The notes under the pieces were generated by a model. The model was given only the letters and a program-made list of their open reading frames with translations. It was not told where the DNA came from and ran no database searches. Shown piece by piece: positions 251 through 24,842 of a stretch of DNA of 64,000 nt. The DNA is taken from IMG/VR virus record IMGVR_UViG_3300013121_000023, positions 113,133 through 177,132 of that record. One strand, 5' to 3'. Both the position numbers and the translations under genes were made by a program. The DNA comes from a virus. Taxonomy: Duplodnaviria; Caudoviricetes. The first letter of the stretch is position 1. Every line of letters begins with the position of its first letter.

Positions 251-252
251 CG

Positions 253-285
253 AAAGCGGGCCTCGGCCCGCTTTCTTTTTAACTA
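253..285 (+). terminator. Intrinsic terminator
   Basis: aaagcgggc-ctcg-gcccgcttt followed by a T-run. Confidence 0.75.
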
Positions 286-1090: not shown

Positions 1091-1160
1091 TCGTTGAAGA
1101 CAACTTTTACTCTGTGCTTCTGTAACGTAAGCGCTGTCTCGTTTTTAGAAAGGTGTGAAC

Positions 1161-2294
1161 ATGTCGTATTTCTTCACAAAAGACGATCTCTCGGTATCAT
1201 ACGGAACTAATCTGTATAACTGTTTGTACGATAATGACTTTTGGTCCAGCCTGTTGTCCAGAGTCTCGCTCAGACTAGGAATGTCTGCTTACGTAGGAAA
1301 TGTTGGCGACGCTAGATCTAAAATATCGAAAGATAACTTCGATAAGCTAGTGTCTATTCTTAAAGAGAGTTGTTTTACTAAAGTCTACTCAAGAGGTGAT
1401 TATCCGTCTTGTGAAGAGGTATATCTATCCGTAGCTGGATACGTGATTGTAGACGTATTCCAGGATAACCATACATTCATATATGTAGGAATGTTCGATA
1501 GGGAGTCTGTTAGTAAGCTTAAATCCAAAATAGAGCATCTTGTAGAAAAAGTACCTGAAAATAAAGTTGATAACATACCGCGGGTACACGTCGTAGTTCA
1601 AACATCTAGCGGCCTAGACACTAGGGAATTTAATAGTGTCTATTGCAAGCTAGTTCGGGATAACTATGACGCGCGCGTTCTTTCGCAGTGGGACAACGTT
1701 ATTTCTGAGTTCAAGAAATCCGAGCCTGTGGCTAGAATGGCCATACTGAATGGCCCGCCAGGCACCGGTAAAACACATCTTATAAAGTCCATGCTGTTTG
1801 AAGATGGATTGTTTTGCCTTCTTCTGCCAAATGATTTGTTTGTAAACGTGGCCTCACCGGCCTTCCTCAACTTCTTGATAAATACAGCAGGGAGAATTTC
1901 ACAGAAGTTGGTTCTTATACTTGAGGACGCCGATAGTCTATTGGAGGAGAGGTCCAACAAAGACGACGTTAATCCATTGGCGACGCTGCTCAATATGGCA
2001 GACGGAATATTGGGTAGAATATTGGATGTTCGTATGATTTTGACTACGAATAGAAAAGATCAAACGTATGACGCCGCTACCCTGAGAGCTGGTAGGCTTC
2101 TTCACAACATAAACGTAGATAAGTTGGAAAAGAATGGTGTACTCAAAGCCTTTAGAAACATACTGGCTGACAATGGGATGTCTGAGAATGACATTCATTG
2201 CGAACTAGAAAAATTCGCGGCGGATCGCATGTCCATTGCCGATGTATATGCGATGGCGTTTGATGTGCTCAACAAGAGAAGAGAAGCAAAATGA
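1161..2294 (+). CDS. AAA+ ATPase
   Basis: Walker A GPPGTGKT, Walker B LILEDAD, LLNMADG, TTN, RAGR. Confidence 0.9.
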   Translation: MSYFFTKDDLSVSYGTNLYNCLYDNDFWSSLLSRVSLRLGMSAYVGNVGDARSKISKDNFDKLVSILKESCFTKVYSRGDYPSCEEVYLSVAGYVIVDVFQDNHTFIYVGMFDRESVSKLKSKIEHLVEKVPENKVDNIPRVHVVVQTSSGLDTREFNSVYCKLVRDNYDARVLSQWDNVISEFKKSEPVARMAILNGPPGTGKTHLIKSMLFEDGLFCLLLPNDLFVNVASPAFLNFLINTAGRISQKLVLILEDADSLLEERSNKDDVNPLATLLNMADGILGRILDVRMILTTNRKDQTYDAATLRAGRLLHNINVDKLEKNGVLKAFRNILADNGMSENDIHCELEKFAADRMSIADVYAMAFDVLNKRREAK

Positions 2295-3373
2295 TAGATC
2301 TAGGACCGATCAAAAACTACCTGTCTTTGGTTTGTACGGCAGACGATGCCGGTATCACATACGACAAACTATTGAATGCGCTAACAATATCGCAAATGTT
2401 GTCGTATAAAGAGAGCTACGTAAGAGTACTGCGCTTGTCAAAGGACATGCTTTCACCTGACGGTAACAGGGTAATAAGTAAAAGAAACCTAGTAAAGTTG
2501 GAGAAGCAACTGTCTGCAAAGTTCTATCTAATGCAGCATGCAGGTAATAGAAAGTATTACGTATCCAAGGATGGGTGCGGTTTTCTGATGGTAGATGCTG
2601 GCGAGTACTTGTCTATAGTGGGGGCCGAACTGTGGTTCAGTAATCTACCAGGTGGGTCAGGTACTGATGCAATTAAAAGCGCGCTAAGCCTCAGTAGATT
2701 GGAGGCAAGACCTACTGCGTGCGTCCACATGCTAGTAGCGCAGGGCGGTATTTTGACAGCCCGCCCAGTGTTCATAAAGGAAAGCAAGTTTGTAGTCTCT
2801 AACTACTCTTCAACGGTTAGGAACAAATGGGCGCACGCCGTATCAGCTATGTGTAGCGCTGAGCCACCAGCTAGACTGACTATACTGAATGGTCCGCCAG
2901 GAACTGGCAAGACACACTTGATAAAATCACTTCTGAGTAATAAGGATGTCAGTTGTTTGTTCATACCTAATGGTTTGTTTCCTAAGTTGGCCGATCCATC
3001 ATTCATAGGTGCAGTCACGGACTTCTGCCGATCTACCGATCTACCTGTGCTTATTATGGAAGATGCCGATGATGTATTGAGTTCCAGAGAAGAGGCAGGG
3101 ACAGTGAACCCGTTGGCTACACTGCTTAATATGACAGATGGAATACTTGGTGTGATGCTGAACATTCGTGTGATTTTGACCACGAACAGAAAGGACCAAT
3201 CTCTGGACAAAGCTTTGATCAGAGAGGGTCGTCTTCTAGAGCACATAGAGGTGGGGTATCTTTCTCCGAGCGAGGCTGTAGAGTGCGCCAAAGGGCTTGG
3301 CGCTTCTATAAAGAAGCCTTCAAACAGTATGCCTTTGTGTGATGTGTATGCTGCGATTAAGCAAAAGATTTAG
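2291..3373 (+). CDS. AAA+ ATPase, tandem paralog
   Basis: GPPGTGKT, LIMEDAD, LLNMTDG, TTNRKDQ, REGR. Confidence 0.9.
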   Translation: MIDLGPIKNYLSLVCTADDAGITYDKLLNALTISQMLSYKESYVRVLRLSKDMLSPDGNRVISKRNLVKLEKQLSAKFYLMQHAGNRKYYVSKDGCGFLMVDAGEYLSIVGAELWFSNLPGGSGTDAIKSALSLSRLEARPTACVHMLVAQGGILTARPVFIKESKFVVSNYSSTVRNKWAHAVSAMCSAEPPARLTILNGPPGTGKTHLIKSLLSNKDVSCLFIPNGLFPKLADPSFIGAVTDFCRSTDLPVLIMEDADDVLSSREEAGTVNPLATLLNMTDGILGVMLNIRVILTTNRKDQSLDKALIREGRLLEHIEVGYLSPSEAVECAKGLGASIKKPSNSMPLCDVYAAIKQKI

Positions 3374-3394
3374 GGTTTAAGTCATAAGAATTAT

Positions 3395-3905
3395 GAGATG
3401 TTTAATTAGAGACCCCTCCAAAGAGGGTCTGCCTACAAACCCGGGCAGATGAAAACATAAAAGTGGGTTCTCAGTTAATGCGACATTAACTGAGTGTCTT
3501 GAAACCAAGTCCATAGTATGGACTCTGGGATGTGCCCAGCACATATACCCAGCACATATCGCGGCTAGCGCCCCGCGATTGGCTTGCGGCAAGGCAAGGT
3601 GTCAGTCACTCAAGGTAAGGTGTCGTTGCTACACGCCACCGAGTGACGACGTATAGGGTTTCAGTGTGAATCCCAGTGGGGGATAGCACGAAGTAGCATT
3701 TACAGCCCTATATTTCAAGCCTCCGCAATGTCATAGAAAGCAAGCATACAGCTAGAACGTTCATTCGCGAAGCTCGCTTTTCTTGTTCGGCGAGTTAGCA
3801 CAGAACGATGCTGTGTGTTTGAGCCGTAGCGCAGCGGCGTAGGATATATTTTATCTGTGTGTGTGTGTGTGGGCTGCCGGAATAACCGGCAGCCTTTTTT
3901 TAGTA
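3395..3905 (+). ncRNA. Putative structured ncRNA of about 500 nt
   Basis: No credible gene; dense hairpins; promoter motif at 3380-3388 and terminator at 3872-3905. Confidence 0.55.
3872..3905 (+). terminator. Intrinsic terminator
   Basis: ggctgccgg-aataa-ccggcagcc followed by TTTTTTTAGTA. Confidence 0.8.
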
Positions 3906-3919
3906 CCGATGGAGAAGCC

Positions 3920-4918
3920 ATGAAGATGAATATTTTGGGCCAGGAACGTTGTCTGTATAACGTACCCTATCACATAGGGTTCAACACTATAAAATTTGTA
4001 AGGTCTTTGTACGCATGGCTCAGTGATTACGATCGTAAGCTAACGTGGATGACCGTAAGTTCACCGCGTCAATCAGCAGAATATTATCACTCCGTAGCTT
4101 TGGACAATGGTTATAAAGAAATATGGATGGCAGAGACGGGACTTACACGTTACGAACTAACTGCTCTTTTGCAATGGATGAGCATACTTCAGCGCGTAGT
4201 ATTTGAAAAAATATCTCATTTTCCAGCTAGGGCGCTTTTCAGAAGGAATGAAGGTAAATTGGAGGTTCACCCAGCAGCTATAGTAGGCGACTTCAATAAG
4301 GTATCTAAGTTTTCTCCAACCTATCGTAATTACGTTTCTATTGGAGTTGATACCCCATATGAAATTATTGATATCTACGGCATACATGCACTTGTCGATA
4401 ATTCTGATGAAGATAAACCATTTCACATGTTCCCTGTGGGAGCTAATGAATCCATTGCAAGTATATTCAGGTCTAACGATCAGTTTAAATTGACTGTCAC
4501 TAGTAAGACTGAACTCATTAGCGGTATATACGAATCTGAAGCGGCTGCTAATCGTAATAAGATACACGCTGAAGGAAATAGAATTGCCAAGGCTTGCGTA
4601 GAAGATAAAGTGGCGATCAAAACAGATATTCTCATTGCTAGCCTAGAAACCTGTTTCATGTCTTTTTCGTGTATGGAGAGAGCAATAGCCGCCGTACTGT
4701 CTGACCCGGGGTATGAACAGCACAAGTCATCAGTTATAAACGTCATCCAAACAATCATATCTTGCTACATGGGACATATGTATTGGAGAGAGCAGTTTGA
4801 TTTCTACATGGCCAGTAAATACGCTGTGCCGCAGATGTACTCTATAGATATGTCTTATGGTGATTTTGACTTGGGTAAGCTTATAGATTATTGGAGGCCC
4901 TACATCGGTACGAAGTAG
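3920..4918 (+). CDS. Hypothetical protein
   Basis: GGAG RBS, long ORF ending TAG TAA. Confidence 0.75.
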   Translation: MKMNILGQERCLYNVPYHIGFNTIKFVRSLYAWLSDYDRKLTWMTVSSPRQSAEYYHSVALDNGYKEIWMAETGLTRYELTALLQWMSILQRVVFEKISHFPARALFRRNEGKLEVHPAAIVGDFNKVSKFSPTYRNYVSIGVDTPYEIIDIYGIHALVDNSDEDKPFHMFPVGANESIASIFRSNDQFKLTVTSKTELISGIYESEAAANRNKIHAEGNRIAKACVEDKVAIKTDILIASLETCFMSFSCMERAIAAVLSDPGYEQHKSSVINVIQTIISCYMGHMYWREQFDFYMASKYAVPQMYSIDMSYGDFDLGKLIDYWRPYIGTK

Positions 4919-4926
4919 TAATCTTG

Positions 4927-4959
4927 AGAAGGTCCGCTTGGCGGACCTTCTTTTAGCTA
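4927..4959 (+). terminator. Terminator with TTTAGCTA tail
   Basis: agaaggtccgc-ttg-gcggaccttct-tttagcta. Confidence 0.8.
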
Positions 4960-11073: not shown

Positions 11074-11186
11074 AGTACCTCCTTTCATATATCTTATGCC
11101 ATTTTTACGAATAAATTAAGGTACACATAAGTAATAATCGAGGGGCTAAAGAAATGGAAGGATAGCTCCATCTCTAATAAGTGTTG

Positions 11187-12102: not shown

Positions 12103-12174
12103 CATCCCTGACAGGATTTGAACCTGTGACCCGGAGATTAGAAATCTCCTGCTCTTCCGCTGAGCTACAGGGAC
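12103..12174 (-). tRNA. tRNA-Arg(UCU)
   Basis: GGAGA TT TCT AA TCTCC. Confidence 0.9.
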
Positions 12175-12412
12175 ATCTACGCCTTCACTCATATTTCTTA
12201 TTGCGCTATTTATTTGATTTTTTCTTACGGTAGCTAAAAATAGATAGGGTTTGCTGATATAGGAGTAAGTTGGCCCGCCGTCATGATCGCCGTTATACCG
12301 GATGGAGTCTGGAGTACAGCTACTATCAACCGGGCCGAGAAGATAGATTTACAACGAACTGGTGTGGTTCGTATGACTAACGGTCTTTCGGGGCGCCTCA
12401 TCAAGACCGCTG

Positions 12413-23054: not shown

Positions 23055-23478
23055 TTTTCTTGTCTCGTCCTTTTCATTTGCTCAGGAATATAAACCCGAG
23101 CCGCTTAAAGCTGTACCGCCTGGAGACGACAAAATAGTATCTATCAAAGAGGGAGACAAGGCACAGTTCGCAGGCCAGCTGTTTTCTTCTGATACGGCTC
23201 TACGTTGGGCCAATTTCTTGGAGCAGGCCCATGTCAGACTCCGTGTAGACGTAGAACGTGAACGCGCCATAGCTGCGGCCAAAGAACGTGCGCTAGAAGA
23301 GAAACTACGACTTGAGAAGCAACGTTCTGAGTTGTTGCTATCTGAGTACCAGAAACAAATAGATAGACTCACGAAACCTGACCCTTGGTACAAATCTCCA
23401 GTTGTTCCATTCATGGGAGGGGTTCTTACCATGACCATTGTGACGGTCACTGTTGTAGTTCTGGTTTCGAAGAACTAA
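23026..23478 (+). CDS. Exported coiled-coil protein with C-terminal TM helix
   Basis: Signal peptide, coiled coil, PWYKSP plus TM. Confidence 0.65.
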   Translation: MRSKSLSFAIFLVSSFSFAQEYKPEPLKAVPPGDDKIVSIKEGDKAQFAGQLFSSDTALRWANFLEQAHVRLRVDVERERAIAAAKERALEEKLRLEKQRSELLLSEYQKQIDRLTKPDPWYKSPVVPFMGGVLTMTIVTVTVVVLVSKN

Positions 23479-23657
23479 AAACATAAGGCCGGATATCCGG
23501 CCTTATGTTTACACTACATACCTGTTAAACCAAGACAAAGCCTCTTGTAGAGGCAGACCATCCGGTATGAACAGGTTTGCTTTTTTCGCCAGAGCATACA
23601 CAGATTGTACAGATGTTGGTTGTTCCACATCCATGTACTCTGTGTTGCTCGGCGCAC

Positions 23658-24842
23658 TAATTTTCCCTTTACGGACTCCACTACTGTAGAAGTTATAGAC
23701 TTTGCTGAGTCTATAACTTCCGCTATTTCCATGCCCAGCAGTTGGGCATTGGCCATGGCCTGCATGGCCACGAGCTTGGACAGCGTTTCTCTTACTTCTA
23801 TAGTTTCTTGCACTGTCCTGGCTGTATCATCAGCCATCTTGCTTGTTTCCCTTACAGCCACGGCCATGGAGTTGATAGCTTTGGCGATTTCATTTTGTTG
23901 ATTGAGCATAGCGATTTGAGTTGCCCCCAAATCCTCTAGCTTCTTAGCCATCTCAGATACGATGGCCAATATTTGTTGTGCAGCCCCACTCGCTGGAGCT
24001 GGAGCCGGTGTTGTGGCCTGTGGAACAGGCGGGGCTTCTGCGGCGGCTGGTGCTTCTACAGCCATCTTGGGCTTTCTAAGGCTCTTTTGCGCCGCCGTAG
24101 GCGCCGATGCAACAGACGCCGCTGTGGGCGCGGCTGGTGCGGCTGGTGCGGCTGGGGCCTGAGCGGGTGCTGTGGGTACGGAGGGGGTACTGTCTGCTAC
24201 TTCAGGAAGCACCCTCCCCTCCTTGGATGCATCCACTATGGCCGTTCTGACACTATCTGTAAAAAACTCTTTTCCTTTTGCCCTAAACAACTTTAGGGCC
24301 TGACTGGCGTAACTAACTTTCTTCGGGACTTCTAGCAGTATGAATTGAGGTGTGTAGGCGCCTATAGCGCTCATCATGCCCCTCAAATGTATCGGCGGTA
24401 TTGCCGCCAATACCTTTTCATCCAGCGGGGTTTCCCCAGCCATCTTGATGTATTCTTCCGGTGTCTTTGCTTCAGCTCTAACTGTCATGGTCATGGGCAA
24501 TCTCCTTTTTTGTACGGCTTTTGTGGCCAGAATCTTGTCTTTGTGCTCAGCATTCATAGCCAAGCAAACCAAAACTTGTGCGTCAACGCATTCGTAACAG
24601 GAGTAGGGGTCTCCGCTTGCTGCTGGGCATGTCAGCTGCGGTGATACCTGCCTCCATCTTTCCAGTAGAAAAGACATCAATTTATCTCTGATGCTATCTA
24701 CTGGGTTTCTTTCCCATTCTTCTAGATGTTCGTCGTTTTCTAGAAGAGAGATCAATCTTTCTTTAGCTAGTTCTTCATGGGCATCGTGTCCTAGTGACCT
24801 AGCGACCGTCACTAGCTCTTTTTTGTTAGCTTCTTCAAACAT
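23658..24842 (-). CDS. Hypothetical protein with Cys cluster, Ala/Pro linker and coiled coil
   Basis: Ends G GGA AAA TTA (standard end 23514). Confidence 0.7.

What the first reader, a model, noticed from the sequence alone, without database searches (positions are those of the whole stretch)
3380..3905. Large structured ncRNA candidate with its own promoter and terminator
About 500 nt without a credible gene, packed with helices: ctcagttaatg/cattaactgag, agtccata/tatggact, atcgcgg/ccgcgat, gtcactc/gagtgac, tataggg/ccctata, ttgcgg/ccgcaa. It also has short direct repeats (cccagcacatat x2, aaggtgtc x2) and a (TG)n tract. I saw no tmRNA or RNase P hallmark.
Basis: partly seen in the sequence, partly recalled or inferred. 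Interest (0 to 1): 0.7.

Follow-up and report, generated by a model that had tools for sequence, protein, structure and literature searches.

The report
Orphan 500-nt phage non-coding RNA gene
A 177-kb phage from wastewater sludge carries a protein-free unit of about 500 bases, framed by the phage's own start and stop signals for transcription, that most likely makes a folded RNA of unknown job; no relative was found, so its fold and function remain unproven.

Summary
Window 3374-3920 is the largest tRNA-free gap of a 177,132-bp sludge phage.

New here:
- The gap opens with an exact copy of a phage-specific promoter-like 14-mer, CATAAGAWWTATGA. There are 6 exact copies in the genome against about 0.005 expected. 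A 1-mismatch copy lies 14 nt ahead of a tRNA gene (window 12103-12174) in the tRNA cluster.
- It ends in the phage's usual terminator style: a GC hairpin, a T-run and an AG(C)TACC tail.
- One metatranscriptome holds a 461-nt contig covering about 3403-3863, which is nearly the predicted RNA.

The fold is far below shuffled sequences (z -8.35), but only third of 672 windows against the genome's own background (z -3.0).

No Rfam family, paralog or homolog was found in related phages or public collections. Covariation therefore could not be tested.

Verdict: a credible stand-alone non-coding transcription unit of about 505 nt, and an orphan large phage RNA of unknown function. Other first readers of this scan flagged the same stretch. 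No look-alike was noted on other DNA.

The parts
2291..3373 (+). Upstream gene: AAA+ ATPase, 360 aa. It is the second of two tandem paralogs; the first is 1155-2294. It is complete and ends at TAG 3371-3373.
   Evidence: Pfam PF00004, E 2e-14. The alignment with 13 homologs runs to Y353.
3383..3396 (+). Promoter-like motif CATAAGAATTATGA, an exact match to the phage-wide 14-mer CATAAGAWWTATGA. The transcription start is inferred at about 3394-3405.
   Evidence: Six exact copies in the genome, all intergenic. In the window there are 3 matches at up to 1 mismatch, against 0.08 expected. A 1-mismatch copy lies 14 nt before a tRNA gene (window 12103-12174) in the tRNA cluster. The motif is absent from all loci of other phages.
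3394..3902 (+). Predicted non-coding transcript of about 505 nt. About 69% of bases are paired in the MFE model: 172 pairs, 17 of them G-U.
   Evidence: The RNA-library contig of 461 nt is laid on 3406-3841 and extends to about 3403 and about 3863.
3410..3539 (+). 5' cluster of five local hairpins: 3414-3427, 3428-3449, 3471-3493, 3508-3524 and 3525-3539.
   Evidence: Pair probabilities 0.75-0.95. The sub-region 3400-3540 gives z -4.6 on the + strand and -3.1 on the - strand.
3540..3556 (+). 5' strand of the long-range closing helix. It is formed by the CACAUAUAC and GCACA parts of the two direct repeats.
   Evidence: It pairs with 3858-3871 at probability 0.52-0.84 and needs G-U pairs, so it can form only on the + strand.
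3558..3579 (+). Hairpin with an 8-nt loop, CUAGCGCC.
   Evidence: The loop shares the hexamer UAGCGC with the hairpin at 3823-3838 (read from the sequence).
3580..3733 (+). Three-way-junction domain of 154 nt and 55 pairs. The closing stem is 3580-3595/3719-3733; the arms are 3601-3650 and 3651-3713.
   Evidence: z is -4.9 (+) against -3.2 (-). The two strain SNPs, 3582 G>A and 3607 C>U, both keep their pairs: G-U becomes A-U and C-G becomes U-G.
3741..3821 (+). Long interrupted hairpin of 81 nt.
   Evidence: Pair probabilities 0.79-0.99. z is -4.0 (+) against -1.1 (-).
3823..3856 (+). Two small hairpins, 3823-3838 and 3842-3856.
3856..3871 (+). (TG)8 tract. Positions 3858-3871 form the 3' strand of the closing helix.
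   Evidence: Strain X14 may carry one extra TG; the tool skipped the repeat, so this is not firm.
3871..3907 (+). Intrinsic terminator: a 9-10-bp GC stem with loop AAUAA, then T7, then AGTACC. This is the phage's usual terminator style.
   Evidence: Hairpin probability is 0.99 in the ensemble. Of 32 TTTAGCTAC-like sites, about 20 follow a hairpin of -12 kcal/mol or better.
3920..4918 (+). Downstream orphan ORF, 332 aa, starting 14 nt after the terminator tail with its own RBS-like GGAGAAG. It is presumably expressed by read-through.
   Evidence: Its only match among 5.8 billion proteins is itself. There is a weak deaminase zinc-motif hit, E 9.5e-4, below the Pfam cut-off. The fold model is unusable, pLDDT 36.5.
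4931..4958 (+). Terminator after the ORF: a hairpin followed by CTTTTAGCTATT. It closes the RNA-plus-ORF stretch.
   Evidence: hairpin -20.4 kcal/mol.

Best explanation
Window 3383-3907 is a separate non-coding transcription unit of the phage.

How it is made:
- Transcription starts just downstream of the phage-specific promoter-like motif at 3383-3396 (inferred).
- It stops at the strong intrinsic terminator at 3871-3902, which is shown as sequence and predicted to form constitutively.
- This releases a + strand RNA of about 505 nt.

Predicted fold:
- Five 5' hairpins.
- A core of about 330 nt (3540-3871), closed by pairing of two CACAUAU-type repeats with the (UG)8 tract.
- Inside the core: one hairpin, a 154-nt three-way junction, an 81-nt long hairpin and two small hairpins.

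The 5'-proximal hairpins and the terminator hairpin would make it a stable, accumulating RNA.

Function is inferred only. The unit sits in a 22-kb accessory island that also holds the phage's tRNA cluster. It is followed without a promoter of its own by an orphan ORF. It therefore most likely acts in trans through its fold, as a decoy or scaffold for a host or phage factor, possibly the protein encoded next to it. A minority of transcripts would read through to express that ORF.
For: - Non-coding in all frames and under all stop-codon readings.
- Exact copy of the 14-mer CATAAGAWWTATGA at 3383-3396. There are six exact copies in 177 kb, against about 0.005 expected from the pattern's information content (my own arithmetic). 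In the window there are 3 matches at up to 1 mismatch, against 0.08 in shuffles.
- Four of the six exact copies are followed by AAGGA(G) and a nearby ATG. A 1-mismatch copy sits 14 nt before a tRNA gene, so the motif also precedes an RNA gene. Our copy has no Shine-Dalgarno sequence or ORF behind it.
- The terminator is of the phage's own recurrent type and has probability 0.99 in the ensemble.
- Fold z is -8.35 against shuffles, and the region ranks third of 672 genome windows.
- For the core, z is -6.2 on the + strand against -2.0 on the - strand, and the closing helix needs G-U pairs.
- Metatranscriptome X19 has a 461-nt contig laid on 3406-3841, at depth 6.4 against 2.0-2.7 for short contigs on the flanking genes. 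Its 5' end is at about 3403. DNA contigs of X14 and X18 run straight across that point.
- Both SNPs seen in the RNA keep their base pairs.
- This is the largest tRNA-free gap of the genome.
Against: - No homolog was found anywhere, so there is no covariation. Searched: blastn against phages, the genome itself, TerL relatives by DNA and by covariance model, and pattern scans.
- Genome windows that overlap called ORFs fold about as well, for example genome 76536 at z -3.35. Stability alone does not prove a functional fold.
- Raw + versus - strand energy asymmetry is only at the 7th percentile of the genome.
- The promoter role of the motif is inferred, not shown. Our copy lacks the TGn that 11 of 17 loose copies have just upstream.
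- The expression evidence is one contig in one study. Contigs cannot give strand or true ends, and the second RNA run (X20) covered only the downstream ORF.
- The two SNPs come from a single contig at depth 4.8. About half of random transitions at paired sites would also keep the pair.
- There is no terminator between the AAA gene and the motif, so part of the RNA may exist as a 3' UTR.
Confidence: 0.6

Rival explanations
1. Long cis-acting 5' leader. The promoter at 3383 serves ORF 3920-4918, and the 500-nt structured stretch with its terminator is an attenuator that sets how much of the ORF is made. A ligand, protein or tRNA would switch the fold.
For: - The ORF starts 14 nt after the terminator tail and has no promoter motif of its own.
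- The next terminator lies right after the ORF, so promoter, RNA, terminator, ORF and terminator form one stretch.
Against: - No riboswitch, T-box or leader family scores. The best Rfam hit is E 0.38 and rests on the terminator alone.
- The terminator hairpin has probability 0.99, and the closing helix abuts it rather than competing with it. I saw no anti-terminator.
- In this phage a TTTAGCTA-type terminator tail directly followed by a start codon is common, for example genome 2753, where a -21.6 kcal/mol hairpin precedes the tail, and 151552. The arrangement therefore does not call for a leader.
- Other 5' UTRs behind this motif are about 10-50 nt.
Confidence: 0.2
2. Functionless spacer. It would be a remnant of a decayed or swapped accessory gene that kept its promoter and terminator. 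It is transcribed, but its hairpins are incidental.
For: - It is an orphan sequence inside a 22-kb island that the relatives G001 and G002 lack.
- Windows that overlap called ORFs in the same genome reach a similar GC-corrected stability.
- No conservation can be shown.
Against: - There is no trace of a protein family in the stop-free stretches.
- All six frames are broken many times.
- Fold z is -8.35, with a clear excess on the + strand after controlling for composition.
- The stretch is found in runs from 14 sludge, digester and soil studies, with few differences in the two DNA runs laid.
Confidence: 0.13
3. DNA-level element. It would be a replication origin or a protein-binding region whose repeats and palindromes act in double-stranded DNA.
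For: - Two direct repeats lie at helical-turn spacings: a 13-nt unit in tandem, and a 14-mer twice, 21 nt apart.
- There are perfect palindromes of 11 and 8 bp.
- ATPase genes lie next door.
Against: - Each repeat has only two copies.
- There is no AT-rich unwinding stretch; GC is 0.49-0.50, above the neighbours.
- Cumulative GC skew rises straight through and turns only at 122 kb, where gene direction flips.
- The long-range helices depend on G-U pairs and exist on one strand only.
- The ATPases are classical AAA (PF00004), not initiator types.
Confidence: 0.05

Closest known systems
Orphan ncRNAs of jumbo phage PA5oct (ncRNA001-004, about 236-619 nt; PMC7318152)
   Same: They are ORF-free regions of a large phage that are actively transcribed, are hundreds of nucleotides long, have no sequence similarity outside the closest isolate, and have unknown function.
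   Different: - Those were defined by RNA-seq and lacked known promoters.
- This one is defined by a recurrent promoter-like motif, a canonical terminator and a predicted fold, with only one metatranscriptome contig as expression evidence.
- There is no sequence relation between them.
ROOL and GOLLD RNAs (large ornate RNAs of phages and prophages; PMC12286853)
   Same: - Large size: about 500 nt here, against more than 800 nt for many GOLLD members and about 580 nt for ROOL (own knowledge).
- Phage-encoded and multi-domain.
- Function unknown and no known protein partner.
- Those RNAs often lie near tRNA islands. This RNA lies 6.4 kb from the phage's tRNA cluster, in the same accessory island.
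   Different: - Neither Rfam model matches, even at E up to 10 with permissive filters.
- This RNA is not adjacent to tRNAs and lies on the opposite strand.
- No pseudoknots or conserved tertiary motifs can be shown.
- Its helices are unusually perfect and local.
- Self-assembly is untested.
Type III toxin-antitoxin loci (ToxIN) and retron-like 'RNA, then terminator, then protein gene' cassettes (own knowledge)
   Same: The order is promoter, non-coding RNA, intrinsic terminator, protein gene. The terminator would set the ratio of RNA to protein.
   Different: - There is no tandem array of about 36-nt repeats.
- The downstream protein matches no ToxN/AbiE-like or reverse-transcriptase family.

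Membership tests
GOLLD (Rfam) / ROOL (Rfam) / other large Rfam RNAs (OLE, HEARO, raiA) | A score against the family's covariance model at or near the gathering threshold. | tested here: not met
   No family reaches gathering score in the window apart from 8 tRNAs elsewhere. In 3300-3960 at E up to 10 there are only terminator-driven chance hits; the best is L20_leader at 19.2 bits against a 58.7-bit cut-off.
tmRNA / RNase P RNA / 6S RNA | A tRNA-like domain with a tag ORF, or the conserved P4 core or 6S bubble, as detected by ARAGORN or Rfam. | tested here: not met
   ARAGORN finds 0 genes in 3200-4100. There are no Rfam hits.
Self-splicing group I / group II intron | The element interrupts a gene whose exons join into one frame, and the catalytic core is recognisable. 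| tested here: not met
   The upstream AAA ATPase is complete to its family's C-terminus. The downstream ORF has its own RBS and ATG. No intron model scores.
Riboswitch / T-box / ribosomal-protein leader (transcription attenuator) | A known aptamer or specifier fold. | tested here: not met
   No such Rfam family scores.
Riboswitch / T-box / ribosomal-protein leader (transcription attenuator) | A terminator that competes with an alternative anti-terminator helix. | tested here: inconclusive
   The terminator has probability 0.99 at equilibrium and no competing helix appears. Co-transcriptional folding was not modelled.
Type III TA antitoxin RNA | A tandem array of direct repeats of about 34-36 nt, upstream of an endoribonuclease toxin gene. 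| tested here: not met
   The only repeats are a 13-nt unit twice and a 14-nt unit twice. The downstream protein matches no known family.
Replication origin | Three or more iterons, an AT-rich unwinding element and a skew turning point. | tested here: not met
   The repeats have two copies only, GC is 0.49-0.50, and there is no skew turn at 116.5 kb.
Stand-alone phage ncRNA transcription unit (PA5oct type) | An ORF-free region bounded by transcription signals. | tested here: met
   No ORF. Promoter-like motif. Terminator.
Stand-alone phage ncRNA transcription unit (PA5oct type) | A discrete transcript seen in RNA data. | tested here: inconclusive
   One 461-nt contig in one metatranscriptome covers about 3403-3863 at higher depth than the flanks. 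Contigs give neither strand nor true ends, and the second RNA run did not cover the region.

The most novel reading that the evidence does not exclude
The RNA founds a new class of large phage RNAs that work through their three-dimensional fold. One version: it forms an RNA-protein particle with the orphan 332-aa protein encoded just past its terminator. Another: it self-associates through the GCGC-containing UAGCGC loops at 3565-3572 and 3827-3833. Either way it would serve the phage's RNA-centred accessory island (tRNAs; earlier scan notes also report a tRNA mimic, Y-RNA-like RNAs and a Pth2-like hydrolase there), for instance as a decoy against a host RNA-targeting defence.
Probability: 0.15. 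Interest if true: 0.7.

Novelty: new member of a known kind. Interest (0 to 1): 0.4.

Why it matters
Large phages keep turning up long non-coding RNAs of unknown function, and only a few classes are catalogued. This unit is easy to take to the bench: its ends are defined by the phage's own promoter-like and terminator signals, it is about 505 nt long, and the phage occurs in sludge, digester and soil samples from 14 studies. It can be transcribed in vitro and probed without culturing the phage. The promoter-like 14-mer and the terminator style found along the way also give a first transcription map for this uncultured phage. Without homologs or a function, though, this is a candidate rather than a discovery.

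Tried and rejected
- **Homolog searches, all empty.**
  - blastn in distant mode against 50,697 phage records.
  - Relatives of the flanking proteins in IMG/VR.
  - An AAA-ATPase profile in IMG/VR gave 39 distant loci. blastn, nhmmer and the covariance model found nothing like the RNA in them, and there is no consistent gap behind the ATPase.
  - TerL relatives at 48-56% identity, searched with DNA and with covariance model R1.
  - A palindrome pattern scan of IMG/VR gave 7 hits, all chance matches with unrelated flanking sequence.
  - An exact 23-mer in JGI metagenomes gave 0 hits.
  - The closest ATPase relative, P0003, as query in JGI metagenomes gave nothing.
  - The promoter motif plus RBS in IMG/VR gave one unrelated contig.
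- **Sigma-70 promoter.** None is present. The best PWM score in the gap is 7.4, below the genome-wide median best score of 8.45 per 610 nt.
- **Downstream protein.** The Atlas look-alikes are unnamed, and the AlphaFold model has pLDDT 36.5, so no fold search was made.
- **Trans-target by complementarity.** Only chance-level matches of 11-13 nt elsewhere in the genome.
- **RNA run X20.** It covered only 3985-4176 and not the RNA. Depth is too low for this to mean anything.
- **Rejected readings.** Intron, tmRNA, type III antitoxin and origin: see the membership tests.

Full report
**Context.** The window is bases 113,133-177,132 of a 177,132-bp IMG/VR phage record with 141-bp direct terminal repeats. 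Public runs place the phage in activated sludge, anaerobic digesters and soil, across 14 studies. The finding lies between a complete AAA+ ATPase gene (2291-3373, the second of two tandem paralogs) and an orphan 332-aa ORF (3920-4918). All three are on the + strand.

**The observation.**
- The gap 3374-3920 is the largest tRNA-free gap of the genome.
- All six frames carry 6-12 stops of mixed kinds.
- The two minus-strand ORFs of about 70 aa have negative codon log-odds, -0.13 and -0.15, where real genes score +0.17 +/- 0.09.
- They and the longest stop-free + stretch match no Pfam or PHROG family.

**Is the folding more than chance?**
- As RNA, 3380-3905 folds to -209.9 kcal/mol against -159.0 +/- 6.1 for dinucleotide shuffles, z -8.35. 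The reverse strand gives z -5.33.
- I checked this against the genome itself. Among 672 real 526-nt windows on the + strand, with GC regressed out, the region ranks third, z -3.0. Windows that overlap called ORFs reach similar values. The signal is real but not unique, and the shuffle z overstates it.
- Strand specificity is clearer when each strand is compared with its own shuffles. The core 3540-3871 gives z -6.2 (+) against -2.0 (-), and the long hairpin 3741-3821 gives -4.0 against -1.1.
- The raw energy difference between strands is only at the 7th percentile of the genome, because the + strand is G-rich throughout.

**Anatomy.**
- Five local hairpins at 3414-3539.
- A long-range helix in which the CACAUAUAC and GCACA parts of the two direct repeats (3540-3556) pair with the (UG)8 tract (3858-3871). 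It uses G-U pairs, so it exists only on the + strand.
- Inside that helix: a hairpin (3558-3579), a 154-nt three-way junction (3580-3733), an 81-nt interrupted hairpin (3741-3821) and two small hairpins (3823-3856).
- The terminator hairpin (3872-3894, probability 0.99) abuts the closing helix.
- About 69% of bases are paired, and 17 of 172 pairs are G-U.
- Two hairpin loops share UAGCGC, which contains the self-complementary GCGC. I give this little weight.

**The ends.** No sigma-70 consensus promoter is present. Looking for words enriched in this genome's intergenic DNA led to a phage-specific motif.
- The motif is CATAAGAWWTATGA. It has six exact copies in 177 kb, where about 0.005 would be expected from its information content (my own arithmetic). 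All are intergenic.
- In the window, 3 matches at up to 1 mismatch stand against 0.08 in shuffles.
- Four of the six exact copies are followed by AAGGA(G) and a nearby start codon. Eleven of 17 loose copies have TGn just upstream, like an extended -10 element.
- A 1-mismatch copy sits 14 nt before a tRNA gene (window 12103-12174) in the tRNA cluster, so the motif also precedes an RNA gene.
- At genome 56874 the ATG inside the motif opens an ORF of about 180 aa, which suggests transcription starts about there.
- The finding begins with an exact copy at 3383-3396, ten bases after the ATPase stop codon, with no Shine-Dalgarno sequence or ORF behind it.
- The motif is absent from the two complete relatives and from every foreign locus fetched.
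- At the other end, the hairpin plus T7 plus AGTACC at 3871-3907 is a variant of the phage's standard terminator. There are 32 TTTAGCTAC-like sites, and about 20 of them directly follow a hairpin of -12 kcal/mol or better.
- The unit is thus framed by the phage's own start-like and stop signals. That the motif is a promoter is inference.

**Expression.** Two RNA libraries hold parts of the stretch.
- In X19, an activated-sludge metatranscriptome, a single 461-nt contig is laid on 3406-3841. It extends to about 3403 and, into the skipped TG repeat, to about 3863. Its depth is 6.4.
- The flanking genes in the same run have only contigs of 151-174 nt at depth 2.0-2.7, and nothing covers 3194-3402.
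- DNA contigs of X14 and X18 run straight across 3403.
- The contig's 5' end lies 6-10 nt beyond the start inferred from the motif.
It is one study, contigs show neither strand nor true ends, and run X20 covered only the downstream ORF.

**Variation.** Only two substitutions were seen inside the RNA, both in one X18 contig at depth 4.8. 3582 G>A turns G-U (with 3731) into A-U, and 3607 C>U turns C-G (with 3645) into U-G. Both keep their pairs, but about half of random transitions at paired sites would do the same.

**Relatives.** None was found.
- blastn against phage records, the genome's own sequence, flanking-protein relatives and pattern scans gave nothing.
- A covariance model of the three-way junction, searched over 16 related or ATPase-bearing phage records and 46 loci, also gave nothing.
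- Comparison with the two complete TerL relatives (49-56% identity over their best segments) shows that genome 106.6-128.6 kb is an accessory island without counterpart in them. It holds the ATPases, this RNA, several orphan ORFs and the tRNA cluster; earlier scan notes place a Pth2-like gene at its left edge.

**Rival readings.**
- A cis-acting leader for ORF 3920-4918 is the main rival. That ORF has no motif of its own, and the next terminator follows it. But no aptamer family scores, and the terminator is predicted to form constitutively with no competing helix. A TTTAGCTA-type terminator tail directly followed by a start codon is also routine in this phage.
- A decayed gene is not supported by any protein similarity.
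- A DNA origin is not supported by composition, skew or repeat number.

**Comparison with known systems.**
- It behaves like the orphan ncRNAs found by RNA-seq in jumbo phage PA5oct.
- In size and setting it resembles ROOL and GOLLD, which are phage or prophage RNAs often near tRNA islands and of unknown function.
- It is not a member of any Rfam family.
- Earlier notes of this scan describe comparable orphan promoter-to-terminator RNAs in other large phages. None shares sequence with this one.

**Verdict.** This is a credible stand-alone non-coding transcription unit that yields a stable, heavily paired RNA of about 505 nt. Function is unknown and the fold is unverified. I put 0.6 on this reading, 0.2 on a cis-acting leader, 0.13 on a functionless spacer and 0.05 on a DNA-level element.

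Noticed in passing
window 3383-3396 (+), 11085-11098 (-), 12189-12202 (-); genome 3171 (+), 54167 (-), 54609 (-), 56874 (-): A phage-specific promoter-like 14-mer, CATAAGAWWTATGA. It has six exact copies in the genome, mostly followed by AAGGA(G) and a start codon. A 1-mismatch copy (window 12189-12202) lies 14 nt before a tRNA gene in the tRNA cluster. At genome 56874 the motif's own ATG opens an ORF of about 180 aa, possibly a leaderless mRNA. The motif is absent from the relatives G001 and G002.
   Followed up: partly
genome-wide; e.g. window 252-285, 3871-3907, 4931-4958: The phage's terminators share a tail: a GC hairpin, a T-run, then AGCTAC(C). The core TAGCTA is a palindrome that puts a stop codon on both strands. 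There are 32 such sites, and about 20 follow a strong hairpin. In several cases a start codon follows within 17-27 nt, so read-through seems routine.
   Followed up: partly
genome 76536-77061, 87582-88107, 41294-41819; window 23368-23893: Other 526-nt windows fold as far below the GC-expected energy as the finding does (z -2.9 to -3.35). In the 300-nt scan, window about 23,200-23,800 is the most stable stretch of the genome on the minus strand (z down to -4.3). I did not examine what they hold.
   Followed up: no
window -6477 to 15437 (genome 106.6-128.6 kb): A 22-kb accessory island has no counterpart in the two complete relatives, which share the flanking genes. It carries two AAA ATPases, this RNA, orphan ORFs and the tRNA cluster; earlier scan notes place a Pth2-like gene at its left edge.
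   Followed up: partly
window 3920-4918: The orphan 332-aa ORF has a weak, sub-threshold match to the cytidine/dCMP deaminase zinc-binding region (residues 193-257, E 9.5e-4), with an HAE motif and two cysteines about 28 residues later. One strain (run X14) has an in-frame GGA insertion right after the start codon. The single-sequence fold model was unusable.
   Followed up: partly
window 1155-2294 and 2291-3373: Two tandem AAA+ ATPase paralogs, about 43% identical over the ATPase domain, overlap by 4 nt. The closest outside relative is only 45% identical.
   Followed up: no
window 3856-3871: The (TG)8 microsatellite may be one unit longer in strain X14: the contig is 5 letters longer than the reference, and 3 of those letters are the GGA insertion. 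The tool skipped the repeat, so this is not firm.
   Followed up: no
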